Sequence record: MZ501074
Length of the DNA stretch: 64,000 nt
Reading direction: 5' to 3' (one strand)
Origin: Escherichia phage HildyBeyeler
In this document: positions 10,891 through 64,000 of the stretch, piece by piece
Numbering within the stretch: position 1 is the stretch's first letter
Layout: each line of letters starts with the position of its first letter
The notes under the pieces: generated by a model
What the model saw: the letters and a program-made list of their open reading frames with translations, nothing else
What the model was told of the DNA's origin: nothing
Databases searched by the model: none
Translations under genes and position numbers: made by a program

Positions 10891-10899
10891 AAATTTTAC

Positions 10900-10928
10900 T
10901 TGCTAATCGCTACCAGATTTGCTATAAT
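10900..10928 (+). promoter_or_regulatory. sigma70-type promoter (TTGCTA-17-TATAAT)
   Basis: Hexamers read directly. Confidence 0.6.
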
Positions 10929-10954
10929 ATCTCCATTAGTTAAGGAGATTAGTT

Positions 10955-47849: not shown

Positions 47850-48035
47850 ATGGAAACTCTTTTTCTTTTAATGCTTGTAGGTTCCCTGCTAGTCATATTA
47901 GCACTTCTACTAATCTGCAATATTCTTAATAATAAGAATTTAGAGTTAAAGTGTGAGAACCAAATCCTTAATCGTGAACTTAAACAATATAATCTAGCAG
48001 CTCATAAACTGCTAGACAAACTGGAGAATAAATAA
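47850..48035 (+). CDS. hypothetical membrane protein
   Basis: ORF track; TM helix. Confidence 0.35.
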   Translation: METLFLLMLVGSLLVILALLLICNILNNKNLELKCENQILNRELKQYNLAAHKLLDKLENK

Positions 48036-48643
48036 TGTTTACACAACAACCTATTCAAGTAGTACCAGATCATGAACTGAATACATGGGATTATAGCTTT
48101 AAAGATTTAACTGCTACTGTACAATTCAAATCTATGAAGCTAACCTTTGCACACACTAATATTAAAGCATGTAAAGATTTTGAAGGTAGGCTCAACAACG
48201 CTCGTAAGATTTTTGGTACGGCTCGGATTCCAGCTGATAACCTTATTAACGCATTAATAGATGCGGGCTATAAACTCGTGAAGGCTGAGGTGAACCGCCC
48301 TAGTACTCCAGTAACTGTTAGTGATCCGTGGCAGTCAGGGCCAATTATAAGGTGGAACAGTCCTAAAATAACGTCGGATTTGCACAATGTTCCATGCGGT
48401 GGTGCGCTGTCGTCTAATCAGTCCTATCGAGTTGGGGAAGATTATGGGCCTTCTGCACAGTTGAAACATACTCAAGAAGCTTTTGAATCTGACATGAAAA
48501 GCGTAGCACCTGCAGATGCTGGAGTTTCTAGGAGTTCTGTTTGTACTATTCATTTTAATAATCCTAGTAAACATGGAAGTCTAGAAGATGCTATTATGGG
48601 GGCGTTGGGAGCTGCTCTTAATGAAGATAAGAGAGGTAATTAA
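48035..48643 (+). CDS. hypothetical protein
   Basis: ORF track; ATGA overlaps. Confidence 0.45.
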   Translation: MFTQQPIQVVPDHELNTWDYSFKDLTATVQFKSMKLTFAHTNIKACKDFEGRLNNARKIFGTARIPADNLINALIDAGYKLVKAEVNRPSTPVTVSDPWQSGPIIRWNSPKITSDLHNVPCGGALSSNQSYRVGEDYGPSAQLKHTQEAFESDMKSVAPADAGVSRSSVCTIHFNNPSKHGSLEDAIMGALGAALNEDKRGN

Positions 48644-49368: not shown

Positions 49369-49385
49369 ACGTTAACAAAATCTTC

Positions 49386-49414
49386 TTGACATTATTTGAG
49401 CTGTATGTTATAAT
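49386..49414 (+). promoter_or_regulatory. consensus sigma70 promoter TTGACA-17-TATAAT
   Basis: Both hexamers perfect, 17-bp spacer; no ORF downstream. Confidence 0.7.
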
Positions 49415-49767
49415 AATCTCATAGATTAAAAACATCAACTTGTTTTTACCTCTAGGCCGTAGATTTACATCATTCCTCGTAGGAAAACACTTGATGACGG
49501 TTCTGTTCGCAGGTTCTCGTCAATTGTTCTTCCTCCCCGAGACTCAGGAGGATGTATCAAATCGCACGCGCCTAGAGGGGCTAACTCTCATGAAATGGGG
49601 GTATATTAACTTTTAAATAACTGATAAATATTTAAAGGCAATATCTGTGTTCAAGATGATACACCTGTTGCCGCTCATCTGCTAGGATGGCACAACACTT
49701 TCTTCTAGACTCCTAAGTTTCTAGGAAATTGATAAGCACAAATTCTAGAGATCGCACAAAAATATTC

Positions 49768-50546
49768 ATCGGATTTGCACATATTCTAGGAAATTGATAA
49801 GTACAAAAATATTCATCGGATTTGCACATATTCTAGGGCAGTTTCTCTCAAACGTTACACATACTAGGCGGTTAATATAGGGCGGTTATAGGGAGGGCGG
49901 TTATTTCTAGGAGACATTTTTTGAAAACACATTTCTGGATTTTACTGTCGGATTTGCACACTGCATTTCTAGAAATTTATGGTCGGATTTGCACAAACGC
50001 CTAAGTTTTTAGGAACATATAATCTCTTGAAAATGGCAGCATTATTTCGGGCCGAAGGCCCATGATTGCCTGAGTTTTTAGAGCCACAGGAATTTTCACT
50101 TGTCAAGCTATTTTGCCCCATTTTGCTAATAAAATTTTACTTTTTCTGCACCTATCTCAAATTTCCCCAAATTATCTCAACTCTTCCCCAAAACCCCGCA
50201 AATCAGGTGCTCCGCACCAATCCTGCGCCCACACCATTCTAGCCTCCCAAATTTCTCTCGCTCTCTCATCTTCTCCTCAAACCTATACAATCACACACCC
50301 TCTCATCGAAGTCACAAAAATTTCATCGGATTCGCACAAATAAACCCATGTCGGATTTGCACATATTCTAGCTAATTCCACAGGATTGATGCGCAGCATC
50401 GGATTGCTGGAGTTTTTGGGAAAATTCGTCGTCGGATTCGCACATCACAAAAGTTTTTAGGGTCGGATTTGCACACTACCAAAAATTGTCGGATTCGCAC
50501 ATACACGCCCGCACGTAACACCCGTGGAGCAATGTCGGATTTGCAC
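49768..50546 (+). repeat. ten direct copies of 13-bp iteron TCGGATT(T/C)GCACA
   Basis: Copies start at 49768, 49815, 49947, 49982, 50325, 50350, 50431, 50462, 50488, 50534, all same orientation. Confidence 0.85.
49866..49902 (+). repeat. three direct copies of GGCGGTTA at 14-15 bp spacing
   Basis: Copies at 49866, 49880, 49895. Confidence 0.7.
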
Positions 50547-50575
50547 AAAAGCGCAGGGCAATTGCCCTGCGACTT

Positions 50576-50800
50576 TGAATGAGAATCATTATCATTTAAG
50601 AAGTGGAATGCAAATGATAATTATTCTCATTTAAGAAGTGGAATGATTCTCATTTAATAAGTGGAATGCAAATGATAATTATTCTCATTTAAGAAGTGGA
50701 ATGAGAACTATTCAAGAAGTGAAACGATTCTCATTAAAGAAGCGAAACGATTCTCATCCTAGAAAGGGAATGCAAATGATAATGATTCTCATTTAAAAAC
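50576..50800 (+). repeat. tandem array of about 24-bp units (GATTCTCATTTAAGAAGTGGAATG and variants)
   Basis: About eight degenerate contiguous units read directly. Confidence 0.8.
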
Positions 50801-50822
50801 GGAAGTGAGAAACACTGTTATT

Positions 50823-50936
50823 TAAGTTATCCACAGACTTATTAACAGCACGATTTGACTTGACAGAATCCTAGCCATTTTGAGGCGTTATCCACAGACT
50901 TATCCACAGCTTATTCTACTGTATAAATATACAGTA
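50823..50936 (+). promoter_or_regulatory. left inverted repeat with three perfect DnaA boxes and 20-bp palindrome
   Basis: TTATCCACA at 50827, 50888, 50900; TACTGTATAAATATACAGTA at 50917-50936. Confidence 0.8.
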
Positions 50937-51191
50937 TTCCTACGCAGTGAATAATTCTAATATAGGCCTAAAACGTCCTGAATCGCATTCTAGCGCGTTT
51001 TATTTTGGCGGGGATACTAAAACAAGGGCAAAACTGGAGGAGGCTTAGAAATTAGTTAGCTCGCTAACGATCACACAAGGCGACACGTAACACCCTAATC
51101 ATTAGCAGGCTAACCATCGCGGGCGCGGTCAAATGAGAATCATTCTCATTTGAGGATTGGGGGCACTTCCTGATAATTGCCCCCGTGATTA

Positions 51192-51386
51192 TTAGTCCGG
51201 TAATTGATGCGTGATCTTCTCCTCTTCCCCGTAGGAATCGACTAAATGCTGATAATAACCATCATGATCATAAATGACTTTATCATATTCGCCCAGCTCG
51301 ACCGCTTGCCGGTTTTCCGGAGTATCGGGCACATAAAAAACGTCAACCATTGTGGTAGTTTTGGTCACAATAATTTTATCGCTCAT
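51192..51386 (-). CDS. hypothetical protein
   Basis: ORF track; last gene of leftward operon. Confidence 0.4.
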   Translation of the reverse strand: MSDKIIVTKTTTMVDVFYVPDTPENRQAVELGEYDKVIYDHDGYYQHLVDSYGEEEKITHQLPD

Positions 51387-51401
51387 AATAACGCCCCGTT
51401 A

Positions 51402-51683
51402 TTAGTTGACTATCTCAAAGATAGCGTTCTCAAGTGTCGCCCTTAGGATCCCATCGCGCCCTACTACGGAATACTTGAGATCAGGTATTTTGTAACGCTC
51501 AATTGCTTTGAGTAATTGATCTTTTTGGGCTTTATATTTTTGCCCTTCTCGCGCTATCGTGTCGCCTTCGGCTTTAATGCAAATCAGTGTAACCATAATA
51601 ATCCCCCTAGTAAATATATTTTTGCCAATAGCGGCGAACGTTATCGCCACCAGCGGAATCATTAGCTGCCTTACTATTACCAA
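51402..51683 (-). CDS. hypothetical protein (start uncertain)
   Basis: ORF track; possible internal start at MVTLICIK. Confidence 0.4.
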   Translation of the reverse strand: MVIVRQLMIPLVAITFAAIGKNIFTRGIIMVTLICIKAEGDTIAREGQKYKAQKDQLLKAIERYKIPDLKYSVVGRDGILRATLENAIFEIVN

Positions 51684-51707
51684 CGAAAATATATAATCTC
51701 ATTAGTA

Positions 51708-51869
51708 TTATTTTCCCCGCATTAATTTATACATAACTAACATCCCGCAAAACTGACCTAAGATAGTGCAGACAACAAGGGATAACACAATATTGCCTAT
51801 GGTGTTATAAGTAACCACACCAACAATAAGGGATAATGCATACCCTAGCAGGGCAATATAAACAGCCAT
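51708..51869 (-). CDS. hypothetical mini membrane protein (53 aa)
   Basis: Hand translation MAVYIALLGYALSLIVGVV...; not in ORF track. Confidence 0.35.
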   Translation of the reverse strand: MAVYIALLGYALSLIVGVVTYNTIGNIVLSLVVCTILGQFCGMLVMYKLMRGK

Positions 51870-51878
51870 ATTATTTAC

Positions 51879-52214
51879 CTATTTTCGAAACGCTGTTTCA
51901 ATACTATCAGCCGTGGATTGAATATACGCGCCTTTCATTATCAGGCGCTCGGTGCATACTTTGCGAAAAATATTAATAAAATCATCTTCATTTTCTGCGA
52001 TTAACGCCTCCCCCATGACCTGAATATCACACGATGCAAAGGTCAAAAATTGAAACGCTAGTTCACGGGCGACGACCGCATTAATTTTATAATGCGCCTT
52101 TCCATCGTAAATATTAACAACGCCCTTATATTCAGGCGAAAGCTGATTTAAGTAGTTTGCTAATAATCCCGGGCGGCAATTAGTAACAAAGCGATTCCCT
52201 TCATAAATTACCAT
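51879..52214 (-). CDS. hypothetical protein
   Basis: ATG 52214 (MVIYEGNRF) preceded by GGGAGG; track ORF 51879-52229. Confidence 0.45.
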   Translation of the reverse strand: MVIYEGNRFVTNCRPGLLANYLNQLSPEYKGVVNIYDGKAHYKINAVVARELAFQFLTFASCDIQVMGEALIAENEDDFINIFRKVCTERLIMKGAYIQSTADSIETAFRK

Positions 52215-52215
52215 T

Positions 52216-52341
52216 TTATAACCTCCCAATCAGATAGCCAGATAAAAGCATAAAAATCCCCAGCGAACTAGGGTCATTCTTAAACAAGGTGGCGGTAAAA
52301 CCGCCAACCATTGCAAGGATAACAACAATAACGCTTTTCAT
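52216..52341 (-). CDS. hypothetical mini membrane protein (41 aa)
   Basis: Hand translation MKSVIVVILAMVGGFTATLF...; ATGA-coupled to upstream gene; not in ORF track. Confidence 0.35.
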   Translation of the reverse strand: MKSVIVVILAMVGGFTATLFKNDPSSLGIFMLLSGYLIGRL

Positions 52342-52550
52342 AGTACCCCACGAAACGCAGCGTAAAAGGTGGCAAAGTGTCTAACCGTTTCAGCTATCAC
52401 GTTGCCGCGCTTATCGAATTTTTTCTCGGTAACACGAAAGGCGTTTTTATTCCGTGCTACATATTCGATTTTACAATCTTCCCGCTCGAACGTGTTAACG
52501 TCCACCAGCTTAAAGCCTTTGGAACGAGCAAGGGAAACATTACGAATCAT
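52338..52550 (-). CDS. hypothetical protein
   Basis: ORF track. Confidence 0.4.
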   Translation of the reverse strand: MIRNVSLARSKGFKLVDVNTFEREDCKIEYVARNKNAFRVTEKKFDKRGNVIAETVRHFATFYAAFRGVL

Positions 52551-52552
52551 TT

Positions 52553-52741
52553 TTATTCTCCTTTACTATTCATGCAGCCCAGCAGATAAGAAAATACAGC
52601 GACACCCGCGCCAATAATAACCATAGGTTTAGTATTTGCTAAACTGCAATAAGAATCCTGAATACCATAAGCGGTGGCGAAAAGAGTCAAAATAGCGCCC
52701 AAGATACCTGCTAAAAAAGCCCGAAAAATAACCATTTTCAT
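52553..52741 (-). CDS. hypothetical two-helix membrane protein
   Basis: ORF track; two hydrophobic stretches. Confidence 0.4.
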   Translation of the reverse strand: MKMVIFRAFLAGILGAILTLFATAYGIQDSYCSLANTKPMVIIGAGVAVFSYLLGCMNSKGE

Positions 52742-52781
52742 TCTCCTAGTTAGTGGGGCGAAAGTAGCGCCCCGTTATTAC

Positions 52782-53012
52782 TTACATTAAAACGATTTTG
52801 GCGGCTTGTTTTTTGGTGCAATGTTCTGCTTTCAGGGTATCCAGCAAAAAGCCCGCCGTTTGCTGATCGATTTGATCATTATCATAAAGCGCCTGAATGG
52901 TAGTGTAAGTTTTAGCAATGCCGTATTCTTGCACCATTTCTTGAATGATCCAGCGATTTGATACCCAGCCTTTTCCAGTGAAAAGATGACTAGCAGAAGA
53001 ATAAGCAACCAT
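52782..53012 (-). CDS. hypothetical protein
   Basis: ORF track. Confidence 0.4.
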   Translation of the reverse strand: MVAYSSASHLFTGKGWVSNRWIIQEMVQEYGIAKTYTTIQALYDNDQIDQQTAGFLLDTLKAEHCTKKQAAKIVLM

Positions 53013-53130
53013 TATAAGCCTCCAAAATTTTTTGGGAAATTTTCAACCGTCCTCAAACGGTGTAAGGGCATTATAACAAAAAGGCCGCCATAATCGGCGA
53101 CCTTTACAAAACTTTACATTAGATTATTTA

Positions 53131-54123
53131 TTACTCGTTTTCGGTGTTAGTGGTAAAAGTAGAAATATCGATACCTTTTACCATTTCATCAATCATCTCA
53201 GCGATGTTAAAACTTTGCACCATTTCCAACATTGCCGCTTCCATAGCCGCTCCTGCTACCGCTTTCGCTTTCTGGTTATTCGGGGCGTACTGGTCAACCG
53301 CTACACTCAGCAGGTTAGCGATCACTACTCGACCGATCGGCGTATCAATATAGCCTTTAATCATAAATGGCGCTTTTTTAGCCGCTACTTTCGTGATTTG
53401 AGTTAGTGCAATTTTACCCGCTTCCAGTTTTGCAGCATTTACAACAGCGGATTTATTAGCGGCAACGATGTTAGCGATCTTAGTCATGGTATTTTTTCCT
53501 TTGTTTTCAGTGGTTTGAGTGTTAACGCTTTGAGTGTTAGAATTTACAGCATGTTTTTCTATATTGTCAATAGGCTGATCTTCATCTTTCCAGAAAGAAA
53601 AGCCCGCGCTTTCTATATCCCCATCGTATACGTATGGGTATACTTCCGACGGTAGCAAAAAATTGCCATCATCATCAAAGGCCATTACAGCCGCCAGACG
53701 ATACCCGTCACCGATTGACCGATTCCAGCCAACTGATAAATAACGCCAAAATGAATCAAGAAAGTTTTCAACGTCATAAAGATCCTTATCATAAGGCTCA
53801 TAATTTTCTATTGAAAAAACTTCTAAGCCCGCCCCAGCATCATAGGCTTTTACTGTGCTACCTTTTACGATTATGAAATCAGTGTCCGGCCCCCTACTAG
53901 TAAGCAGGTGATTATCCCTATTATATAAGATAATAGTTGCCCCTTGCTTATATAATGGTAGAAAACTACTCATATCATAGGCGTCGAAATCATCAAAAAA
54001 ATTCTGGTGAATATCTTCGGCCTTGTTAACAAAGTGCTTAATGCTGGTTGTTCTGCTACCGTCCAGCAGGTTGCGCAGCGCACCTTTTAAGACGGTTGCG
54101 TTATCTGGTTTATATAGCCTCAT
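53131..54123 (-). CDS. hypothetical two-domain protein (330 aa)
   Basis: ORF track; acidic N-terminal domain, N/T/Q-rich linker, A/K-rich C-terminal domain; no motif recognised. Confidence 0.55.
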   Translation of the reverse strand: MRLYKPDNATVLKGALRNLLDGSRTTSIKHFVNKAEDIHQNFFDDFDAYDMSSFLPLYKQGATIILYNRDNHLLTSRGPDTDFIIVKGSTVKAYDAGAGLEVFSIENYEPYDKDLYDVENFLDSFWRYLSVGWNRSIGDGYRLAAVMAFDDDGNFLLPSEVYPYVYDGDIESAGFSFWKDEDQPIDNIEKHAVNSNTQSVNTQTTENKGKNTMTKIANIVAANKSAVVNAAKLEAGKIALTQITKVAAKKAPFMIKGYIDTPIGRVVIANLLSVAVDQYAPNNQKAKAVAGAAMEAAMLEMVQSFNIAEMIDEMVKGIDISTFTTNTENE

Positions 54124-54389
54124 TTGTTGGCCTCCCTCGTTAATCGGTGAGTGAATGATAAAGGCAATTTTCTAGCATAGGCAAATATTATTTTACCTTT
54201 TTATTTTCCTTGCCTAGCGCCTAGTTTTATGCTAACCGCGCAGCGGTACAGTAAAGAGCAAAACACGGTGAAGCCACCAGGCCGACGCGTTGAGGCTTTA
54301 CTTTAATATTACCCCACTGCGTTTAGCTCGTTAGAAAGCGATTTAGGCCGCTTAAAATTGATTGCAGTTGTTAACACTACCTTTTTACC

Positions 54390-54497
54390 CTGTATATTTA
54401 TACAGTAGGATAACCTGTGGATAAGTCTGTGGATAAGCCCTTATATCGCCGCCTATTGTGTCAAATCATTTTGTGCTGTGATTAAGTCTGTGGATAA
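54390..54497 (-). promoter_or_regulatory. right inverted repeat with three DnaA boxes (reverse orientation) and palindrome
   Basis: TGTGGATAA at 54416, 54428, 54489; CTGTATATTTATACAG at 54390-54405; mirrors 50823-50936. Confidence 0.8.
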
Positions 54498-54538
54498 CTT
54501 AAATGATAGTTTTTCTCACTTAGGCCGATAGTTTCTTA

Positions 54539-54580
54539 TAGTGATTATTTTTATAGTGATTATTTTTATAGTTATTATTT
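54539..54580 (+). repeat. tandem 15-bp AT-rich repeats (ATAGTGATTATTTTT)
   Basis: Two perfect units plus one degenerate, read directly. Confidence 0.6.
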
Positions 54581-55247
54581 CTCATTAATTTATATGTATA
54601 TTATATAATATGAAATAGTTAGTTGGCTAATGAGATTTTACGGGATTAGTAGTCTGCTAATGGTTCAGGCTGTTACAATCCACCAGCACGATTATCATTC
54701 TAGTAATTATTAGTCTGCTATCTTTCTAATACACAACAACAAATAAAAGTCAATTAATTAATTTTATAAAATAACTCATTTAGTCTTGATTTTTAAAAGT
54801 CAATACCTTTTACAACTATTTTTCAATTTTGCTTTTATTAAATATTTGTTAAGTCGAAAATAAGCCGCCTAAAACGCCCTAGAAAGCGGTAAAATTTTCA
54901 GGTATCCCATCATAAGGGGATAGCCCGTTTATCGTCACCTGATGGATTCTAGAAAAATCAAGTAGGGCAAGGCAAATATAAGTGAAAAAATTACTTGCCT
55001 ATCTGCTATGTTTTGTGGTATCCGCGCGCCCGTTTCCTTTAAACTTGGGCAATCGCCGGACACCTTGCTTTCTTTACATTTCTTTACAAAAATAAGGTTG
55101 CGCCATTTTTGGTATTTGCTATTATTTACCTCGTAGGGCGGCAATGACGAACTACACGGCGGGAAGTTTACCGCCGCGCTCTTTAAAAATTGGGTATATC
55201 TTAAAGTCTATCGGCGGCAAACTTATACATTATAAGGAATCGCAGAT

Positions 55248-55451
55248 ATGAAACAAACTTTATTGATCACTGGCAAGCCAGCTAAAAAACTGGATGGCAA
55301 TACTAGAAAGCTGTTGACAGTAGCGCAAAGATCAGTAAAATATCGATTTAAGCAGTACAAGAAAGGCCGCCAGCAAGGTCTAGAAATGATCTGGCGAAAT
55401 ATTATGATCGACCTAAAGGAAAATCATAAAAAACTGCAAAAAATTGTTTGA
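55248..55451 (+). CDS. hypothetical basic protein
   Basis: ORF track; AAGGAA RBS. Confidence 0.4.
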   Translation: MKQTLLITGKPAKKLDGNTRKLLTVAQRSVKYRFKQYKKGRQQGLEMIWRNIMIDLKENHKKLQKIV

Positions 55452-55679
55452 CAACCTAGCCGATAGGCTTTAAGATGTACCCAGTTCGATAAGAGCGATA
55501 ACTTGATACAATTTGACGGCCGGTACTTGCCATAATGTGCCCCGCCCCCTAACTGGGATATAGCGGCCCGCGTGGAGTTCTTTAAATTGATTATATTGGC
55601 AAGCGGATTTTTTCTTATTACCTGCTAGAAAGTAGCAGGTAATGCGGAACAATCCACTAAATAAACTGGAGTTTATACT

Positions 55680-55931
55680 ATGCAAAACATTACTAATGCG
55701 CCGAAAGTTGGTCAATCCGTTTTTATCCCTTTCGTTACTAAAACGGACGAGGCAACCGGAAAGGCCGAACGCATCAAAGGCGCGGCGCTTATGCCGTTTG
55801 ATGTGATTGATGCGGTATACGCTGAAACGGAACAGAGTAACAACGGGAAAACCGTTTTTAGCGTTCGCGTTAAATCCGGCGACGTTGTAAAGGTTGCCCA
55901 GCGTAACGAAAAATGGGAAGCTGTAGCGTAA
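55680..55931 (+). CDS. hypothetical protein
   Basis: ORF track; followed by CCCCCAG...CGGGGGG hairpin. Confidence 0.45.
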   Translation: MQNITNAPKVGQSVFIPFVTKTDEATGKAERIKGAALMPFDVIDAVYAETEQSNNGKTVFSVRVKSGDVVKVAQRNEKWEAVA

Positions 55932-56034
55932 TATAGTGTTAACTTTATATTCCCCCAGTAGTTCGGGGGGAATATAACGATTAACATTATGTTAATCATT
56001 TAATCCCTTAAATTAAATCGATAGGAGCTATATC

Positions 56035-56451
56035 ATGACTAACGTTAAAGCCGAAAAATCCGCAAAATTTGCTTGGAATGAAGAAAACACCCAGCAGGCG
56101 GTTACTATGTATCAGCAGTTAATTAATGAAAACGGATTAGATTTTGCAAATAGCGACGGTTTAAAAGAGATTGCGAAAGCAGTTGGCGCGGCTTCTCCCG
56201 TGTCCGTTCGGTCAAAATTGACCAGCGCGAAAGCCTATCAAAAAAGCGATAAGCCGCGCAAAGTTGGCGGCGGCAGTTCAATCCGCAAAGCGCATTACGT
56301 GCGCGTTATTGCAAAACATGCCATCGATTCCGGCATTATCAAGGACGCCGATGATCTGGCATCACTGGAAAGCGCAAAATTAGAAACGTTGGACGTCGTG
56401 GCGCAGATGTTAGGCGTTGCCGATGAAGTAAAACAAGCCGCAGGCGAATAA
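56035..56451 (+). CDS. hypothetical protein
   Basis: ORF track; GGAG RBS. Confidence 0.45.
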   Translation: MTNVKAEKSAKFAWNEENTQQAVTMYQQLINENGLDFANSDGLKEIAKAVGAASPVSVRSKLTSAKAYQKSDKPRKVGGGSSIRKAHYVRVIAKHAIDSGIIKDADDLASLESAKLETLDVVAQMLGVADEVKQAAGE

Positions 56452-56540
56452 TAGTTATATCTTGCCCCTTCTAGCGAGGGGGCAATAATATAACTGTTTA
56501 GCGATAGTTATTTTCTTCCCCTAAATCAGGAGTTTTAAAA

Positions 56541-56738
56541 ATGATCTTTTACCCTACTGAATCGCTCATTCTAGGATTATTTATTATGGCGGCCTCATTA
56601 TTGTTTGCTTATTTCCAAAATGATCTGGATTCGTATTATTTTAAGCGCAAAGCTAAATTAGCAAAGCGGTTGGGCTTACTTTGCTTAATTGCCGCCGTTG
56701 CTTGTGGTGTTAGTTCTAGCCTGATGCCGATTAGTTAA
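56541..56738 (+). CDS. hypothetical membrane protein
   Basis: ORF track; two TM helices; hairpin ATAACGCC...GGCGTTAT downstream. Confidence 0.4.
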   Translation: MIFYPTESLILGLFIMAASLLFAYFQNDLDSYYFKRKAKLAKRLGLLCLIAAVACGVSSSLMPIS

Positions 56739-56835
56739 ATATCGCAAGTTATAACGCCTATTATTTAAGGCGTTATATCTGGCAATATTGCCAATAACAA
56801 ACGTTTTTTAATCCCTTTAATGGAGTTTTATTATT

Positions 56836-58506
56836 ATGGTTATTTCCGCAGAAAAACAAACCCAGATCCTCAACCTTGCCGCTGATTTCAATTTCTATGG
56901 TAAACGTCTGCGCGCTACTAAGCTGGAAGTTTGTGACGATATTTCAAAAGCTGTTTATGATACGCCGAAACATTCCACCGCTATTTGTGACTGGTTGGAA
57001 GCAAATAAACCAGCGAAACCGAAAGCGGCGAAAGTAGCAAAAGCCATAAAAAACGATGACCGCCCTGAAGCCGCTGGAGTTATTTCTAGCACGGTGGAGC
57101 AATGGGAAGTAAAACAAGGCAAACGCTTTATCATTACATCGATTCAGAATAATACTTTCCCGCATAAAAACTTTTTGGCCGCGCTTGAACAATATGCCCA
57201 ATTTATTGGAGCTGATTTGCTGGTTAGCAAGTATATTTATAATAAAAACGGTTTTCAAAATGGGGAAGGGGCAGACGGAATCAAATATGATTCTGCATTT
57301 GACAAATATATTTGCAGCAAAAACGTGTTTTTAAATAACCGCCGCTTTGCTTTCATGGCTGAAATTAATGTTTTGCCAACCGCAGATTATCCGCTATCTG
57401 GATTTGCTGAAACTGCAACCGCGCTTAATCTGGAAGGTCTGGCAATTGGTCACGCTAAAATCACCGCCGAAAGCGTGCCAGCTTTAAAAGGTGAAGTAGT
57501 GCGCCGCATGTATTCAACCGGAACGGCAACGCTAAAAAATTACATTCAGCAGAAGGCAGGGCAAAAAGCGGAAGCGTTACATAATTTTGGTGCGCTGATT
57601 GTCGAGTTCGACGAGGACGGAGAATTTTTTGTTCGCCAGCTTGAAACGATGGACGAAAGCGGCGTTTTTTACGATTTGAATATTTGCGCCACTCCCACCG
57701 GATGCTATGAAACAACGGGGCACGTTTTAGGTTTACAGTATGGTGACATCCACGCTGAAAAATTAGATGAAGAGTGCGCCGCTGCATCATGGGGGCATGG
57801 TGATACCTATGGGCTTGTGGATATTCTCAAACCAAAATATCAATTCGTCCATGACGTGCATGATTTTACATCACGCAACCATCACAACCGCGCCTCCGGT
57901 GTATTCCTAGCAAAACAGTACGCCGCCGGACGTGATAAGGTTCTGGATGATCTTATCGATACGGGGCGCGTACTGGAAGCAATGGAGCGTGATTTCTCTC
58001 AAACAATCATTGTTGAATCGAATCACGATCTGGCGTTATCCCGCTGGCTTGATGATCGTAATGCTAACATTAAAGACGACCCAGCAAACGCGGAACTATA
58101 TCACCGCCTGAATGCCGCGATTTACGGAGCTATCGCAGAAAAAGACGAAACCTTCAACGTGCTTGATTATGCGTTGCGCAAGGTTGCAGGTTGCGAGTTT
58201 AACGCCATTTTCCTAACGACTGACCAATCTTTCAAGATTGCAGGCATTGAATGCGGCGTACACGGTCACAATGGCATTAACGGGAGTCGTGGCAATCCTA
58301 AACAGTTTAAGAAATTGGGCAAATTAAACACGGGGCATACTCATACGGCAAGCATTTACGGCGGTGTATATACCGCTGGCGTTGCTGGTAGTCTGGACAT
58401 GGGTTACAACGTTGGCGCGTCAAGCTGGACGCAAACGCATATTATTACCTATGTAAACGGTCAGCGCACTTTGATTGACTTTAAGAATGGTAAATTTTTC
58501 GCATAA
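56836..58506 (+). CDS. A1: A1-like pre-early protein, metallophosphoesterase-type nuclease
   Basis: 556 aa; GDIH, ESNHD and GVHGHNG phosphoesterase motifs; size and context recalled to match T5 A1. Confidence 0.5.
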   Translation: MVISAEKQTQILNLAADFNFYGKRLRATKLEVCDDISKAVYDTPKHSTAICDWLEANKPAKPKAAKVAKAIKNDDRPEAAGVISSTVEQWEVKQGKRFIITSIQNNTFPHKNFLAALEQYAQFIGADLLVSKYIYNKNGFQNGEGADGIKYDSAFDKYICSKNVFLNNRRFAFMAEINVLPTADYPLSGFAETATALNLEGLAIGHAKITAESVPALKGEVVRRMYSTGTATLKNYIQQKAGQKAEALHNFGALIVEFDEDGEFFVRQLETMDESGVFYDLNICATPTGCYETTGHVLGLQYGDIHAEKLDEECAAASWGHGDTYGLVDILKPKYQFVHDVHDFTSRNHHNRASGVFLAKQYAAGRDKVLDDLIDTGRVLEAMERDFSQTIIVESNHDLALSRWLDDRNANIKDDPANAELYHRLNAAIYGAIAEKDETFNVLDYALRKVAGCEFNAIFLTTDQSFKIAGIECGVHGHNGINGSRGNPKQFKKLGKLNTGHTHTASIYGGVYTAGVAGSLDMGYNVGASSWTQTHIITYVNGQRTLIDFKNGKFFA

Positions 58507-58561
58507 TTAAATTATTCCCTAGCGGCTTGAAATATAGCCGCTATTACAGGAGCCACAAAAA

Positions 58562-58852
58562 ATGAAAATTAATTTACCTAGCAATGAATTTTCCCCTAAA
58601 ACTTCTTTACTAGATGATATTTCTTATCAAGATGCTTATATAAATGAGGAAGTATATCGCGCTTGTTCTGACCTCCTAGAATATCCCGATTATCCAATCT
58701 ATAAAGGTGATTTCATTATACCCGTTTATAATGGTGTGCTAGTAGTAGGCAAAGCTGGGGTTATTGTTATAGATAGTTGTACATTGTCACAAGAAACGTT
58801 TAAAGTGCCACTAGAGTTAACTAATTATTCTCCTAGTATTACAGTACAATAA
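58562..58852 (+). CDS. hypothetical protein
   Basis: ORF track. Confidence 0.4.
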   Translation: MKINLPSNEFSPKTSLLDDISYQDAYINEEVYRACSDLLEYPDYPIYKGDFIIPVYNGVLVVGKAGVIVIDSCTLSQETFKVPLELTNYSPSITVQ

Positions 58853-58889
58853 ATTAAGTCCCTTATTAAACTAATTGGAGTTTATAAAT

Positions 58890-59282
58890 ATGAAAAAGCA
58901 AAATATCCCATTCGATCGCGCTCAGTCTTCTATCGTTCTGGTTTATTCTAATGGTGCGCGGTATCACGTCGAGGCCGGTCACGTTGTCGATGACTTAATC
59001 GAGTTTAATGACGTTTTGCAGGTTACTACTTTCGCCTATACCACGGGCAAGCTATCCAGCCGCATCAAGGCGAAAGGCGTTCACATTGACACGATGAAAC
59101 AAGAAACCATCATTATTGACGCGGTAAAATCCGGCCTAGCCTTTGCAGTTGTCGCGCCTTGCCCCGCTTGCCTTGATGATCAGCTAATGAGCGCAAAAGT
59201 ATTTACTTGTGCGGGGATTCGTTCCGATGTATCAGGTGAAGATATTAGTTTTATCGCTGATGCGCTGGCTTATGGTCTTTGA
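58890..59282 (+). CDS. A2-like pre-early protein (about 15 kDa)
   Basis: ATG 58890 after GGAG; position between A1-like and dmp-like genes. Confidence 0.35.
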   Translation: MKKQNIPFDRAQSSIVLVYSNGARYHVEAGHVVDDLIEFNDVLQVTTFAYTTGKLSSRIKAKGVHIDTMKQETIIIDAVKSGLAFAVVAPCPACLDDQLMSAKVFTCAGIRSDVSGEDISFIADALAYGL

Positions 59283-59320
59283 TAGTTGATTTATTATTGC
59301 CCGCTGATAAATAGCGGGCA

Positions 59321-60097
59321 ATGCTGGATAAACTAAATCCCTTTAATGGAGAACGTAACAAAATGAATCAAGTTAAAACGAATATTACCCGTAATTTCCC
59401 GCATGTTTCCCGCGTCATGATCTGGGATCTGGATGGCACTATCGTTAACTCATTCCATCGCGTAGCGCCTTGCTTTGATAGTGATGGTAATCTAGATCTG
59501 AATAAGTATAAAAATGAAGCGTGCAAACATGATTTAATAATGCAAGATACTTTATTGCCGCTTGTTACATATATGCGCCAATGCATGAATGACGCAAATA
59601 CTTTAAACATTATTTGTACCGCTCGACTGATGAGCAAGTCGGACTATTATTATTTGCGCAAACAAGGCTTGCGAGGGCGTGGGAATAGCAATATCCGTGT
59701 ATTTTCCCGCGATACACTGCATAAGTATTTTGAAGCTGATAAAGTTAGCGAAATATACCACAGTAAGGACGCAGTTTATAAAAGCCACTACTTTGAGTTA
59801 TTTAAGCAGTTATATCCGAACGCTGATTTCACGATGATAGACGATCATAAAGGTGTGCTAGCAGCGGCGGCATCATACGGATTTAAAACGTTGGACGCGC
59901 AAGCCGTTAACGATATTCTATCAATCGGTGTTACATTGATAGGCGAAACCTTTATCGACGAATCTCTTGAGGATGATAATGATTATCAGTTCCTAGTCGA
60001 TCGCTTGCAATTATGTTGGGAAAGTATGACCGAGGAAGAACGCGCAGAATATAGTTGCAGCCCGCAACAATATATCGAGAAACTAAAAGTTGCATAG
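59321..60097 (+). CDS. dmp: HAD-superfamily 5-prime deoxyribonucleotidase-like protein
   Basis: MIWDLDGTIVNS HAD motif I; 258 aa; pre-early context. Confidence 0.55.
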   Translation: MLDKLNPFNGERNKMNQVKTNITRNFPHVSRVMIWDLDGTIVNSFHRVAPCFDSDGNLDLNKYKNEACKHDLIMQDTLLPLVTYMRQCMNDANTLNIICTARLMSKSDYYYLRKQGLRGRGNSNIRVFSRDTLHKYFEADKVSEIYHSKDAVYKSHYFELFKQLYPNADFTMIDDHKGVLAAAASYGFKTLDAQAVNDILSIGVTLIGETFIDESLEDDNDYQFLVDRLQLCWESMTEEERAEYSCSPQQYIEKLKVA

Positions 60098-60103
60098 TAA
60101 TTA

Positions 60104-60140
60104 AAGTTGATATTGTTTCACCTTGCAATTAAAATGGTTG
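60104..60140. terminator. bidirectional terminator, perfect 14-bp hairpin
   Basis: GTTTCACCTTGCAA-TTAAAATGG-TTGCAAGGTGAAAC between convergent genes. Confidence 0.7.
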
Positions 60141-60272
60141 CAAGGTGAAACAGTTAGCATGATAATAGTAACGGGGGTGGCGGTTAGCAGACTAAGTATT
60201 TTCGCCCAGCCCACTGCACCCACCCACGCGTACGTAATCCAAAGAATTTGGCAAAAGTCATTTTAGCGCTAA

Positions 60273-60812
60273 TTACCTGTTTAATTGGGCAACGTCTGGT
60301 ATACTTCCTTTGAACATCTCCTGTATTGCAAAGTCACCATGAAATGTCCTTCTTAGTAAATTTGCATAATTTACGGCATCTTCTAATTCGCTATAGGGAA
60401 AGTACTTAGTAGTGCCCCTTATCAGCCCCTGTTTATCGTGTAATCTTACCATCCACTTCTGAAGTTCTTTATGCCATGTAACATTTAGATAGCCTGATGA
60501 TGCTCTTGAGATTCTGCCATTATGATTATTCTCTGTAATTGAAGCCTCTCTTAAATTTGACCATCTATTATTTAGTTTATTCCTATCTATGTGGTCTACA
60601 CATTCCTCTGGCCATCTATTCTCCATAATAACAAAAGCTACTTGATGTGCATAAGCTTTAAACCCTCGATACTTGAGCTGCCTATATCCCCTATTTAAAG
60701 TACCTGCTTCTTTACCCTTACGATTGCCGCTTTTCCAGGTAAAAACTCCAGTTTCGGGGTCATAAGCAAATACTTCTTGTATTTCCTGTATATTTAGATT
60801 ATTCTTCACCAT
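60273..60812 (-). CDS. HNH homing endonuclease
   Basis: HQVAFVIMENRWPEECVDHIDRN...NRWSNLREAS HNH signature. Confidence 0.65.
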   Translation of the reverse strand: MVKNNLNIQEIQEVFAYDPETGVFTWKSGNRKGKEAGTLNRGYRQLKYRGFKAYAHQVAFVIMENRWPEECVDHIDRNKLNNRWSNLREASITENNHNGRISRASSGYLNVTWHKELQKWMVRLHDKQGLIRGTTKYFPYSELEDAVNYANLLRRTFHGDFAIQEMFKGSIPDVAQLNR

Positions 60813-60854
60813 GAACCTCCATGTGTAATCTTATGAAATTTGGCAAAAGTCAAA

Positions 60855-61100
60855 TTAGTGCATAGAAGGGTCATCAAACCTGTGTTCTGGTCTAAACTCA
60901 CGGAATCTCTTCCGCGACGCCCGAGAACCATCATTCCACTCCCGTTCAAACTCCGCACGTTTCTCATCGAACTTCCGCTCCCTTTCCGCAATCTCCCGCG
61001 ATACTTCCGCAATATATTTACGATGCCTGTCGATAGCCGCAGTCATCCCGAAAACTCCCGCAAGTACCCCGATAATAAAAGCAATTATAATACTAAACAT
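60855..61100 (-). CDS. mini membrane protein (array member a)
   Basis: ORF track; N-terminal TM IIIAFIIGVLAGVFG then charged tail. Confidence 0.45.
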   Translation of the reverse strand: MFSIIIAFIIGVLAGVFGMTAAIDRHRKYIAEVSREIAERERKFDEKRAEFEREWNDGSRASRKRFREFRPEHRFDDPSMH

Positions 61101-61287
61101 CTAATTCCCTCTCAATTTGCAGAATACGGGTGCTACCACAACGTTGCAGTAGTACTAGCTTTTCTAGAGCAACTTGTTGTTGTTTTACTTGAGCTTCTAG
61201 AGTTTTTAGGCGAACATACGCGTTATAAGAAACAATGAAAGTTGCCCAGACTAGTATTACTATTAGTGTAGCTACTATTTCCATCAT
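61093..61287 (-). CDS. mini membrane protein (array member b)
   Basis: ORF track; TM helix then coiled coil. Confidence 0.45.
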   Translation of the reverse strand: MMEIVATLIVILVWATFIVSYNAYVRLKTLEAQVKQQQVALEKLVLLQRCGSTRILQIERELDV

Positions 61288-61391
61288 TTACGCTTCTCCG
61301 TTAATAAGGTTTCAATTCTAGCTAAGTGATTATCTAAAATACATTGCCCGATAATCACAATCCCTAGTAGTGCAATAATTACCCATTCCAT
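61284..61391 (-). CDS. mini membrane protein (array member c, 35 aa)
   Basis: Hand translation MEWVIIALLGIVIIG...RIETLLTEKRK; ATGA/TAATG coupling; not in ORF track. Confidence 0.4.
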   Translation of the reverse strand: MEWVIIALLGIVIIGQCILDNHLARIETLLTEKRK

Positions 61392-61546
61392 TATTTACGC
61401 TCCTCTAATAAAGTTTCAATTCTAGATAATCTATTGCTCAACTGCATTAATTTAACCTCTACTTGGGTTACAGAGGTATCTATTACACGTAAGCCTACAA
61501 AGAGAAGTATTAGTAAGACGAATATGCCAATAATTACCCATTCCAT
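61391..61546 (-). CDS. mini membrane protein (array member d, paralog of c)
   Basis: Start MEWVIIGIFVLL at internal ATG of track ORF; C-terminus RIETLLEERK. Confidence 0.45.
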   Translation of the reverse strand: MEWVIIGIFVLLILLFVGLRVIDTSVTQVEVKLMQLSNRLSRIETLLEERK

Positions 61547-61683
61547 TAAATCCACCCCGCCATAGCTGCTAACCAAAAACCTACGAAAATAAAGAATAGA
61601 ATAGTTCCGAATCCAAAGCTATTAATCCAGCTATCGTACACTTCCCCACGTCTACTTTTTCTTCTGTTTGACATATCTTTCAT
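61546..61683 (-). CDS. mini membrane protein (array member e, C-terminal TM)
   Basis: Hand translation MKDMSNRRKSRRGEV...TILFFIFVGFWLAAMAGWI; TAATG coupling to d; not in ORF track. Confidence 0.4.
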   Translation of the reverse strand: MKDMSNRRKSRRGEVYDSWINSFGFGTILFFIFVGFWLAAMAGWI

Positions 61684-61850
61684 GCTCCTATAAGTGCGGT
61701 ATTTGAAATATTCTATAACTTGTGCACAACCAACCGTGCCTATGAACTCCTAGAAGGACTTCTACTTTTCCTACCTAGTGGTTTCTGCCAGTACACCATC
61801 CGAGAAATAAAAAATTTAGTTTACTTGGATGTCTTTTTGCTTTATACTAA

Positions 61851-62117: not shown

Positions 62118-62202
62118 ATTTATCTCTCCATTTCTAATTTATGAATCTATTATAGCAAAATAGAGGGATGAAAGCAAATACATTTTTATAATAGGAGATT
62201 AT

Positions 62203-63990: not shown

Positions 63991-64000
63991 AGGAGGAAAT

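What the first reader, a model, noticed from the sequence alone, without database searches (positions are those of the whole stretch)
49386..50575. ORF-free iteron field downstream of a textbook sigma70 promoter
A perfect TTGACA-17-TATAAT promoter (49386-49414) opens 1.2 kb with no credible ORF. It holds ten same-orientation copies of TCGGATT(T/C)GCACA, three copies of GGCGGTTA, a GGGCC-GAA-GGCCC hairpin and the perfect palindrome CGCAGGGCAATTGCCCTGCG (50552-50571). This density of direct repeats implies a protein-binding array. At the early/pre-early boundary it could be an injection-stop or partition-like site (T5 first-step transfer recalled from the literature) or an origin.
Basis: partly seen in the sequence, partly recalled or inferred. 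Interest (0 to 1): 0.75.

Follow-up and report, generated by a model that had tools for sequence, protein, structure and literature searches.

The report
T5-type terminal-repeat boundary iteron region
This is the already-described non-coding "injection stop signal" region at the inner end of the terminal repeat of a T5-like phage; its ten iterons are the published DRD repeats, whose function is still unknown and which here bracket the exact point where the genome end is cut.

Summary
The window holds a perfect promoter, ten same-strand TCGGATT(T/C)GCACA copies (0.13 expected), three GGCGGTTA, the hairpin and the palindrome.

The window is a T5-like phage (Demerecviridae), reverse-complemented relative to T5. 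The finding maps to T5 ~9750-10936. That is the large untranslated region straddling the inner end of the left terminal repeat; part of it is annotated "injection stop signal" in the T5 record. The iterons are the published DRD repeats (nine in T5), which have no assigned role. As a feature it is already known.

Four results add to the literature I could read:
- The annotated terminal-repeat end (TTTTTA|GAGCC; window 50080|50081) lies at the centre of the iteron field in five records with an annotated end.
- The motif, its single orientation and its bracketing of that end persist from T5 to Klebsiella, Pectobacterium and Vibrio phages.
- No iteron lies near the outer repeat end.
- The promoter most likely makes a ~200-nt structured RNA that ends before the first iteron.

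My best guess (~0.4) is a protein-binding array that marks the genome-end cut site for packaging. An injection stop/restart role (~0.3) is not excluded. Origin and partition readings are poorly supported.

The parts
49386..49414 (+). Sigma70 promoter TTGACA-17-TATAAT with a TG upstream of the -10. It sits 18 bp after the stop codon of the last early gene and points towards the terminal repeat.
   Evidence: scores it 12/12. It is conserved as TTGACA-17/18-TAT(A/C)AT in T5, SPC35, Sepoy, KpGranit and Vibrio phage Thalassa. The T5 record does not annotate it.
49415..49618 (+). Putative ~200-nt structured non-coding RNA, with a start inferred near 49421. It has four modules: hairpin 1 (49415-49427), hairpin 2 (49428-49447), a long hairpin (49449-49578) and a 3' hairpin ACUCUCAU-GAA-AUGGGGGU (49584-49602) followed by a U-rich tail (49603-49618).
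   Evidence: Fold z-score is -5.35. There are 22 distinct homologues. Hairpin 1, hairpin 2 and the 3' hairpin keep pairing through changes on both arms, the central hairpin is swapped among lineages, and GGGGG is invariant. The + strand folds better in 17 of 22. There is no Rfam match. Expression has not been shown.
49650..49708 (.). Conserved 59-bp block between the RNA unit and the first iteron.
   Evidence: It is identical in T5 and the window. Its function is unknown.
49769..49995 (+). Outer iteron cluster: four TCGGATTTGCACA copies at 49769-81, 49816-28, 49948-60 and 49983-95. It lies outside the terminal repeat, 98-312 bp from the repeat end.
   Evidence: T5 has three copies here; the window's extra copy comes from a 47-bp duplication.
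49867..49903 (+). Three (A)GGGCGGTTA repeats at 14-15-bp spacing.
   Evidence: 6 in the window against 1.09 expected. Two or three copies occur at the equivalent place in Sepoy, KpGranit and My1.
50049..50061 (.). Hairpin GGGCC-GAA-GGCCC, 19-31 bp outside the repeat end.
   Evidence: KpGranit has a different hairpin, CACGGTG-TGT-CACCGTG, at the same relative place. It is not followed closely by a T-run, so it does not look like an intrinsic terminator.
50075..50152 (.). Terminal-repeat inner-end element. The inferred genome-end cut is at 50080|50081 (TTTTTA|GAGCCACAGGAATTTTCACTTGTCAAGC). The repeat runs from 50081 to about 60219.
   Evidence: T5's repeat end 10219|10220 maps here. The same junction is annotated in SPC35, KpGranit (PhageTerm), Sepoy (PhageTerm) and SIY1lw, and one base away in SIA3lw. 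This is the only part of the field with blastn similarity to Klebsiella Sugarlandvirus phages. Related terminal sequences occur in My1 and Thalassa. For this window the boundary is inferred by homology only.
50101..50320 (+). C-rich, G-poor tract with repeated TTCCCC/CCCCAAA motifs, between the repeat end and the inner iteron cluster.
   Evidence: GC skew is -0.68 to -0.69 at 50101-50300. Similar C-rich tracts occur in KpGranit and My1.
50326..50547 (+). Inner iteron cluster: six TCGGATT(T/C)GCACA copies at 50326-38, 50351-63, 50432-44, 50463-75, 50489-501 and 50535-47. It lies inside the repeat, 245-454 bp from its end.
   Evidence: Offsets are the same to within one base in T5 and the same for five of six in Sepoy.
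50550..50551 (+). Homologue of the T5 major single-strand interruption (the '7.9% nick'), AAAA|GCGC.
   Evidence: The T5 record places the nick at 9748/9749 on the complement strand. It was mapped by sequence identity.
50552..50571 (-). Perfect palindrome CGCAGGGCAATTGCCCTGCG. On the - strand it is followed by CTTTTGTG and looks like an intrinsic terminator for pre-early transcription.
48374..48386 (+). Solitary eleventh iteron copy inside an early ORF (48035-48643).
   Evidence: A copy also lies inside the upstream early genes of T5 (12153-12165) and of SPC35.
50575..50936 (.). The adjoining part of the same untranslated region, outside the finding. It holds AATGAGAAT-type repeats (50575-50810), two pairs of DnaA boxes (50827-35, 50839-47, 50888-96, 50900-08) and an SOS-box-like palindrome (50917-50936). 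This is where the published iss candidates lie.
   Evidence: The Davison preprint describes IRD'-spacer-IRC' with DnaA boxes and the DRE repeats.

Best explanation
Identity (about 0.97). The region is the T5-family untranslated region at the inner end of the long terminal repeat. It corresponds to 'Repeat Region 3' of the T5 literature, partly annotated as the injection stop signal. The ten iterons are the published DRD repeats.

Mechanism (about 0.4, inferred; the confidence field refers to this part). The iterons are same-oriented binding sites for one conserved sequence-specific DNA-binding protein. They form two clusters, four copies outside the repeat and six inside. The clusters bracket the invariant site TTTTTA|GAGCC where the concatemer is cut to make the right-hand genome end.

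I propose that the array marks and presents this cut site to the packaging or end-forming machinery. This would work in the manner of SPP1 pacL/pacR or lambda cosB flanking their cut sites. T5 DNA enters the cell left end first, so this right end should be the end packaged first. That would be the initiation end, and it fits the absence of iterons at the outer repeat end.

The promoter is a separate unit. It most likely makes a ~200-nt structured RNA that ends before the first iteron.

What is shown: the anatomy, the homology, the position of the repeat end, and the conservation.
What is inferred: that a protein binds, which protein it is, the direction of packaging, and any role in cutting.
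For: Identity:
- The window aligns to T5 8999-11099 at 83% identity, with long near-identical stretches across the repeat field.
- T5 annotates 9140-10149 as iss and the left repeat as 1-10219.
- T5 has nine copies in the untranslated region, ending at 10489. This matches the published 'nine DRD repeats' and the published right limit of Repeat Region 3, once the 80-bp coordinate offset between T5 records is allowed for.

Bracketing of the genome end:
- T5 10219|10220 maps to window 50080|50081.
- Records of SPC35, KpGranit (PhageTerm), Sepoy (PhageTerm) and SIY1lw put the repeat end at the same TTTTTA|GAGCC junction; SIA3lw puts it one base away.
- My1 and the Vibrio phage Thalassa have related terminal sequences at their ends.
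- This ~78-bp element is the only part of the field with blastn similarity to Klebsiella Sugarlandvirus phages.

Array conservation:
- Across seven phages from five genera, 69 same-strand copies lie within two mismatches of TCGGATTTGCAC. The only opposite-strand matches are two, both in KpGranit.
- Copies lie on both sides of the end in every phage: 4/6, 3/6, 3/5, 3/7, 4/5, 4/6 and 2/7, not counting one distant upstream copy in four of them.
- The association survives rearrangement. In Thalassa a copy ends 11 bp from the end.

Other points:
- No iteron lies near the outer repeat end at ~60219.
- A hairpin just outside the cut is conserved in position but not in sequence.
Against: - No binding, cleavage or packaging data exist for these repeats in anything I could read.
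- Repeat ends in public records are partly annotation by homology. Kenya-K15 and IME260 differ by about 20 bp. The boundary in this window is itself inferred.
- Ten sites spread over about 780 bp, at 98-454 bp from the cut, is wider than the classical small-terminase sites as I recall them.
- No terminase gene was seen in or next to the stretches examined here, so the pac-inside-terS arrangement is absent.
- The motif is nearly unchanged from Escherichia phages to Vibrio phages while phage proteins diverge: A1 is 32-34% identical and A2 is 40%. That would also fit a host factor.
- The same DNA lies at the first-step-transfer pause point, so position alone cannot separate packaging from injection roles.
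- Packaging direction is deduced from the last-in-first-out rule, not measured for T5.
Confidence: 0.4

Rival explanations
1. Injection stop/restart array. The iterons are the first DNA to enter when second-step transfer begins. They would be bound by the pre-early DNA-binding protein A2 (with A1), or by a host protein at the inner membrane. Binding would either hold the DNA at the pause or ratchet it in once A1 and A2 are made.
For: T5 annotates overlapping DNA as the injection stop signal. The usual 7.9% shear-point estimate falls just to the right of the inner cluster, so the iterons lie immediately beyond the pause point. A2 is annotated as DNA-binding and is 40% identical between this phage and the Vibrio phage Thalassa, more conserved than A1, which fits an unchanged motif. 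Davison states that the conserved repeats are probably involved in stop or restart but assigns them no role. A 2026 paper says the mechanism is still poorly understood.
Against: This reading does not explain why the repeat end sits inside the array in every lineage examined, or why four copies lie outside the repeat. By the 7.9% estimate the iterons have not entered the cytoplasm at the pause, so they cannot cause the stop by binding cytoplasmic proteins. The published candidates for the stop are the DnaA-box inverted repeat and DRE repeats, not DRD. The A2 model has no significant structural match that would indicate a sequence-specific fold.
Confidence: 0.3
2. Replication element. The region would be an iteron-type origin, or a priming site for duplicating the terminal repeat. 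Iterons would bind an initiator next to DnaA boxes, and the strong promoter would supply an activating or priming transcript.
For: The layout resembles iteron origins as I recall them: direct repeats in two clusters, four DnaA boxes nearby, a strongly strand-skewed tract, and a strong promoter transcribing towards it.
Against: According to the Davison preprint, T5 origins were mapped near the centre of the genome, and T5's replication functions lie on the second-step DNA, so they are not expressed while only the first-step DNA is in the cell. The two upstream ORFs tested have no recognisable initiator domain. The gene next to the array is not conserved in Thalassa. The promoter unit appears to terminate before the iterons.
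Confidence: 0.08
3. Transcriptional insulator or roadblock. Bound iterons, together with the palindrome terminator, would keep pre-early and early transcription units apart, or would regulate the adjacent promoter.
For: The field lies between convergent units. The palindrome is terminator-like for pre-early transcripts and the promoter faces it from the other side.
Against: Ten sites over about 780 bp is far more than a roadblock needs. Terminator-like hairpins already flank the field. This reading does not explain the centred repeat end.
Confidence: 0.08
4. Low-affinity DnaA sites. The iteron core ATTTGCACA would extend the neighbouring DnaA-box cluster into an oriC-like array that binds membrane-associated DnaA.
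For: ATTTGCACA is one mismatch from the published TT(A/T)TNCACA consensus, and true DnaA boxes lie 300 bp away.
Against: The near-invariant half TCGGA lies outside any DnaA consensus. Common variants (TTC, AAT, TAC in the centre) add further mismatches, while TCGGA and GCAC stay nearly fixed.
Confidence: 0.05
5. Partition-like centromere, on the model of R1 parC (two clusters of short iterons) or F sopC.
For: Only the geometry fits: two clusters of short direct repeats.
Against: T5 is described in the literature as a virulent phage. No ParA/ParB/ParR-type match was found in the two upstream ORFs tested.
Confidence: 0.02

Closest known systems
T5 'Repeat Region 3' / injection stop signal region with nine DRD repeats (named in Davison, bioRxiv 10.1101/866236, which credits earlier T5 sequencing papers; annotated in NC_005859)
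   Same: It is homologous DNA: 83% identity overall, with the same order of elements. These are the promoter, the GGCGGTTA repeats, the DRD iterons, the hairpin, the repeat end, the C-rich tract, more DRD iterons, the nick with its palindrome, the DRE-type repeats, the DnaA boxes and the pre-early genes.
   Different: The window has ten copies rather than nine, through a 47-bp duplication. The ~200-nt segment after the promoter is a different sequence type from T5's. The literature I could read does not describe the array as centred on the repeat end, does not extend it to Vibrio phages, and does not mention an RNA unit.
Terminase recognition sites flanking a cut site (SPP1 pacL/pacC/pacR; lambda cosB next to cosN); recalled from general knowledge
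   Same: Repeated short motifs lie on both sides of a sequence-specific genome-end cut, and they are absent from the other, presumed termination, end.
   Different: Binding by a terminase small subunit has not been shown. The sites are more numerous and more widely spread. The ends here are 10-kb direct repeats rather than cohesive or headful ends. No terminase gene is adjacent.
Plasmid iteron origins and R1 parC-type centromeres; recalled from general knowledge
   Same: Same-oriented 12-13-bp direct repeats in two clusters. In the origin case, DnaA boxes lie nearby.
   Different: No adjacent Rep or ParR gene was recognised. T5 origins are reported elsewhere in the genome. Spacing is irregular in the T5 group (25-132 bp), although it is a regular 27 bp in KpGranit and My1.

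Membership tests
T5-family terminal-repeat inner-end untranslated region (Repeat Region 3 / iss region) | Lies between the last pre-early gene of the terminal repeat and the first early gene | tested here: met
   The non-coding gap 49369-51191 is flanked by + strand early-gene homologues and by - strand pre-early genes. A2, A1 and dmp lie at 56035-60097.
T5-family terminal-repeat inner-end untranslated region (Repeat Region 3 / iss region) | Sequence homology to T5 ~9140-10936 | tested here: met
   Pairwise alignment gives 83% identity, with long near-identical stretches across the repeat field. There are 446 (megablast) to 524 (blastn) matching phage records, almost all Salmonella, Escherichia or Klebsiella T5-like phages.
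T5-family terminal-repeat inner-end untranslated region (Repeat Region 3 / iss region) | Series of DRD direct repeats (nine in T5) | tested here: met
   The window has ten copies. T5 has nine at homologous positions, ending exactly at the published limit of Repeat Region 3.
T5-family terminal-repeat inner-end untranslated region (Repeat Region 3 / iss region) | The terminal-repeat end falls inside the region | tested here: inconclusive
   By homology the end is at 50080|50081. The window holds only one repeat copy and no read data, so the end of this particular phage could not be measured.
T5-family terminal-repeat inner-end untranslated region (Repeat Region 3 / iss region) | Acts in cis to stop DNA transfer after ~8% of the genome | not testable with these tools
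   This needs infection experiments. The literature still treats the signal as unmapped and mechanistically unresolved.
Terminase recognition (pac/cos-type) site | Lies immediately around a sequence-specific genome-end cut | tested here: met
   The iteron clusters bracket the annotated repeat end in T5, SPC35, Sepoy, KpGranit, My1 and Thalassa.
Terminase recognition (pac/cos-type) site | Bound by the terminase small subunit and required for cutting or packaging | not testable with these tools
   No binding or genetic data were found. A literature search on T5 terminase and packaging returned nothing on site recognition.
Iteron-type replication origin | An adjacent initiator (Rep) gene and a mapped origin | tested here: not met
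   The two upstream ORFs tested have no Rep-like domain. The neighbouring gene is not conserved in Thalassa. T5 origins are reported near the genome centre.
DnaA-box cluster | Match to TT(A/T)TNCACA, with conservation confined to that 9-mer | tested here: not met
   The core ATTTGCACA has one mismatch and the common variants have more. The best-conserved bases include TCGGA, which is outside the box.
Partition centromere (parC/parS/sopC) | An adjacent partition ATPase and a centromere-binding protein gene | tested here: not met
   The two upstream ORFs tested show no such match. Only these immediate neighbours were scanned.
Any Rfam RNA family (for the promoter-proximal unit) | Covariance-model match | tested here: not met
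   There is no hit at E<=1 in the window region. None overlaps the unit in T5, KpGranit, Thalassa or three other versions.

The most novel reading that the evidence does not exclude
The DRD iterons would not be, or not only be, part of the injection stop signal. They would be the recognition array of the T5-family genome-end/packaging machinery. Two same-oriented clusters bracket the invariant cut site TTTTTA|GAGCC that creates the first-packaged (right) end, and this layout is conserved from Escherichia phages to Vibrio phages. This would give T5-like phages their first defined pac-type site. It would also split the 50-year-old 'iss region' into separable packaging and injection modules. A separate item in this reading is that the 'textbook promoter' would express an unannotated, family-wide ~200-nt structured RNA.
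Probability: 0.35. Interest if true: 0.6.

Novelty: already known. Interest (0 to 1): 0.3.

Why it matters
How T5 pauses DNA entry after 8% of its genome and then resumes has been unresolved since the 1960s. A 2026 paper still calls the mechanism poorly understood.

The iteron field is one of the best-conserved pieces of DNA in the whole family, yet it has no assigned role. Showing that it brackets the genome-end cut site gives a concrete alternative that can be tested by mutation: a role in packaging or end formation. It also helps decide which sub-elements to mutate when looking for the true stop signal.

Practically, the invariant TTTTTA|GAGCC junction lets annotators place the terminal-repeat end in the many T5-like genomes deposited as collapsed or permuted assemblies. 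It also warns them against calling ORFs in this region.

Tried and rejected
- Rfam scans of the region and of six homologous loci found nothing relevant.
- I tested whether the iteron is a DnaA box and rejected it. The conserved TCGGA half lies outside the consensus and the variants add mismatches.
- A full-text search for the iteron sequence in both orientations found no relevant paper.
- I scanned 185,579 bacterial and archaeal genomes for two iterons 9-39 nt apart, which would be expected if a host protein used clustered sites. There were eight hits. One was a T5-like contaminant contig and seven were unrelated tandem repeats in distant taxa. None was in Enterobacterales or Vibrio. The scan says nothing about single host sites.
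- A2 was considered as the binder. PHROGs calls it a DNA-binding protein. The AlphaFold model is all-helical (mean pLDDT 83), but Foldseek against the PDB gave no hit better than E=0.6, with only weak helix-turn-helix-like resemblances. This is not informative.
- The adjacent 241-aa early gene was considered as the binder. It is conserved in KpGranit (30% identity) but not detectable next to the array in Thalassa, so it is not a family-wide neighbour.
- I asked whether GGCGGTTA is a motif shared by both repeat ends. One copy lies ~35-40 bp inside the outer end in T5 and the window, and a similar GGGGGGCGGTAAT occurs in Thalassa, but not in KpGranit. I left this as a weak lead.
- The search for related loci with the flanking protein returned only four near-identical loci. 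An exact-pattern scan for the promoter/5' sequence was more productive, giving 17 loci.
- The 2015 Davison review could not be opened.
Full report
**1. Checking the observation**

- The promoter TTGACA-17-TATAAT lies at 49386-49414 on the + strand. It scores 12/12 and has a TG upstream of the -10.
- TCGGATT(T/C)GCACA occurs ten times between 49769 and 50547, always on the + strand. An eleventh copy lies at 48374 inside an upstream ORF. Shuffles of the 64-kb window give 0.13 matches. Relaxing the three central bases adds no further copies.
- GGCGGTTA occurs three times at 49867-49903. The whole window has six against 1.09 expected.
- The hairpin is at 50049-50061 and the palindrome at 50552-50571.
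- The gap without credible genes is longer than stated, 49369-51191.
- T5 annotates no CDS across the homologous stretch. A 1-nt indel between T5 and the window falls inside the longest local ORF.

**2. What it is**

A megablast search of 49386-51200 hits 446 phage records, almost all Salmonella or Escherichia T5-like phages. The window is reverse-complemented relative to T5 (NC_005859) and aligns to T5 8999-11099 at 83% identity.

In the T5 record, 1-10219 is the left terminal repeat ("first-step-transfer DNA"). Positions 9140-10149 are annotated "injection stop signal (iss)". Positions 9748/9749 are a "major DNA single-chain interruption". The first early gene ends at 10936. To the right of the region the window carries the pre-early genes A2 (56035-56451), A1 (56836-58506) and dmp (59321-60097).

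The finding therefore corresponds to T5 ~9750-10936. This is the distal half of the large untranslated region that straddles the inner end of the terminal repeat.

Davison's preprint (10.1101/866236) calls this "Repeat Region 3". It lists, among many repeats and palindromes, "nine DRD repeats", and says the region overruns the repeat by 270 bp. T5 has exactly nine TCGGATT(T/C)GCACA copies in the untranslated region. The last ends at 10489, which is the published right limit once the 80-bp offset between T5 records is allowed for. So the iterons are the DRD repeats.

The same paper assigns them no role. A 2026 paper still calls the second-step mechanism poorly understood. As a feature, this is already known.

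**3. Anatomy in window coordinates**

From left to right:
- the promoter (49386-49414);
- a ~200-nt structured unit (49415-49618);
- a 59-bp block identical to T5 (49650-49708);
- two iterons (49769, 49816; the second arises from a 47-bp duplication absent from T5);
- three GGCGGTTA repeats;
- two iterons (49948, 49983);
- the hairpin (50049-50061);
- the terminal-repeat end (50080|50081);
- a ~220-bp tract with GC skew of -0.68;
- six iterons (50326-50547);
- the T5-type nick motif AAAA|GCGC at 50550|50551;
- the palindrome, which on the - strand is terminator-like for pre-early transcripts.

Just beyond the finding lie AATGAGAAT-type repeats, two pairs of DnaA boxes and an SOS-box-like palindrome. 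That is where the published iss candidates sit. The usual 7.9% shear-point estimate also falls there, at roughly 50.6 kb in the window by my mapping. The iteron field is thus on the side that has not yet entered the cell at the pause.

**4. The terminal-repeat end sits in the middle of the iteron field**

T5's repeat end 10219|10220 maps to TTTTTA|GAGCCACAGG at window 50080|50081.
- The same junction is the annotated repeat end in SPC35, KpGranit (PhageTerm), Sepoy (PhageTerm) and SIY1lw. In SIA3lw it is one base off.
- Kenya-K15 and IME260 differ by about 20 bp.
- In a sensitive blastn search, the Klebsiella Sugarlandvirus phages match only query positions 376-453. That is the 78 bp spanning this junction.
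- More distant relatives have related terminal sequences at their annotated ends: My1 (|CCGCCCCCCGAAC...TTGTCAATCC) and the Vibrio phage Thalassa (|GCGACCCCCGAAAAGTCAATTGG).
- A hairpin lies just outside the junction in both the T5 group and KpGranit, but with unrelated sequences.

By homology to the end of the SIA3lw record, the outer repeat end in the window is near 60219|60220. That gives a 10,139-bp repeat. No iteron lies near that end.

**5. Conservation of the iterons**

KpGranit, My1 and Thalassa share little or no DNA similarity with the window outside the junction, yet they keep the whole layout. They have a TTGACA-17/18-TATAAT promoter after the last early gene (not checked in My1, where the fetched locus ends short of it), GGGCGGTT repeats (not found in Thalassa), iterons on both sides of the repeat end, AATGAGAAT-type repeats (not seen in Thalassa), DnaA boxes and the SOS-like palindrome.

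Across seven phages I counted 69 copies within two mismatches of TCGGATTTGCAC on one and the same strand. The only opposite-strand matches are two in KpGranit. The consensus is R-TCGGATT(T/C)GCAC-A.
- Offsets from the repeat end are the same to within one base in T5. In Sepoy eight of nine coincide (-133, -98, +245, +270, +351, +382, +408, +454); in SPC35 the two proximal outer and the four distal inner offsets do.
- In KpGranit and My1 the outer copies are tandem at 27-bp spacing.
- In Thalassa a copy ends 11 bp from the repeat end.

The motif stays nearly fixed while A1 falls to 32-34% identity and A2 to 40%.

**6. The promoter unit**

The DNA downstream of the promoter folds far better than shuffles (z = -5.35). 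Twenty-two distinct homologues share four modules.
- A 5' hairpin: AAUCU-CAU-AGAUU in the window, AACUC-UAU-GAGUU in T5.
- A second hairpin with at least four mutually compensating versions: AAAACA/UGUUUU, ACAAUA/UAUUGU, CAACUA/UAGUUG and UUAAU/AUUAA.
- A long central hairpin whose sequence is swapped wholesale among lineages.
- A 3' hairpin containing an invariant GGGGG, followed by a U-rich tail. In some lineages this is a clear terminator (GGAGAGAC...GUCUCUUUUU).

The + strand folds better in 17 of 22. There is no Rfam match and no conserved ORF. The T5 record annotates nothing there.

I read this as a probable ~200-nt non-coding RNA that ends before the first iteron. Its expression and function are untested.

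**7. Mechanism**

Position is the only evidence for any function, and two roles fit it.

I favour, at about 0.4, a genome-end or packaging role.
- The array brackets the sequence-specific cut that makes the right genome end in every lineage examined, even after rearrangement.
- The cut-site element is the most conserved DNA in the field.
- Iterons are absent from the other end. That fits the lambda pattern as I recall it, in which only the initiation end needs small-terminase sites.
- T5 injects its left end first, so the last-in-first-out rule makes this right end the initiation end.

The rival, at about 0.3, is that the iterons serve the injection pause or restart, bound by A2/A1 or by a host protein. 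The region is annotated iss, and the iterons are the first DNA to enter at restart. That reading does not explain why the repeat end is centred in the array.

Other readings score lower.
- Origin (about 0.08): this is weakened by the reported central origins and by the lack of an initiator gene.
- DnaA sites (about 0.05): this fails because the conserved TCGGA half lies outside the box.
- Partition (about 0.02): it has no support beyond geometry.

Attempts to name the binder were uninformative.

**8. Verdict**

The feature is a known, named element of T5-like phages, so novelty is low.

What remains of interest is the unresolved function, the centring of the array on the genome-end cut site, its conservation out to Vibrio phages, and the probable unannotated RNA.

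Noticed in passing
window 49415-49618 (+); homologues in T5 (L001 5129-5351, - strand), KpGranit (L003 1750-1937), Thalassa (L016 2814-2983) and 18 other loci: The promoter is followed by a ~200-nt modular structured unit with no ORF and no Rfam match. It has two small 5' hairpins with compensatory variants and a long central hairpin whose sequence is swapped between lineages. It ends in a 3' hairpin with an invariant GGGGG and a U-rich tail. This is probably an unannotated small RNA conserved across Demerecviridae.
   Followed up: partly
window 50917-50936 and 54388-54407; also L003 3106-3125, L014 4806-4825, L016 3813-3832: TACTGTATAAATATACAGTA is a near-perfect match to the E. coli LexA (SOS) box consensus as I recall it (CTGT-N8-ACAG). 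It sits next to the DnaA boxes. A second, weaker copy lies deeper in the terminal repeat (0.03 expected by chance). Close matches occur at the same place in 17 T5-group loci and both Klebsiella loci, with weaker ones (1-3 mismatches) in My1 and Thalassa. The Davison preprint does not mention LexA or SOS.
   Followed up: partly
window 50575-50810 and 51130-51152: The AATGAGAAT(C/G)ATT(A/C)TCATT repeats (the DRE/DRB-type repeats of T5) resemble the Fur box GATAATGATAATCATTATC by eye, about 15/19. The perfect palindrome AAATGAGAATCATTCTCATTT differs from the Fur core at two symmetric positions. It could be a Fur-like or a distinct dimer site. This was not scored with a matrix.
   Followed up: no
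window 50101-50320: The first ~220 bp inside the terminal repeat are strongly C-rich and G-poor on the + strand (GC skew -0.68), with repeated TTCCCC/CCCCAAA motifs. The G-rich strand is therefore the one whose 3' end forms the right genome terminus. Similar tracts occur in KpGranit and My1.
   Followed up: no
window 60179-60186 (and T5 positions 36-43): One GGCGGTTA copy, in the same orientation as the triplet at 49867-49903, lies ~35-40 bp inside the outer repeat end in both the window and T5. Thalassa has GGGGGGCGGTAAT at the same distance, but KpGranit does not. It might be a motif shared by both ends, or a coincidence.
   Followed up: partly
window 50081-60219 and 60220-64000: The window contains a single copy of the ~10.1-kb terminal repeat. 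It is followed directly by an HNH endonuclease and the receptor-binding tail protein, which I take to be genes from the right end of the unique region. The source record therefore appears to be a collapsed or circularly permuted assembly, not the virion-ordered genome.
   Followed up: partly
homologous regions in Sepoy (L010 918-1952), vB_Si_CECAV_FGS029, vB_Sen_H9, IME260 (L004 2460-2609) and Thalassa (L016 3224-3768): Many public records annotate several short 'hypothetical proteins' across this repeat field, in some cases directly over iterons or over the repeat end. T5 annotates none. These ORFs are probably spurious.
   Followed up: no
L037 3086-3124 (Paenibacillus contaminans), L038 (alphaproteobacterial MAG), L043 (Bacteroidales MAG): Unrelated bacterial contigs carry tandem arrays (22-29-bp period) whose unit contains TCG(G/C)ATTTGCAC. 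These are probably independent iteron arrays that share the 12-mer by chance.
   Followed up: no
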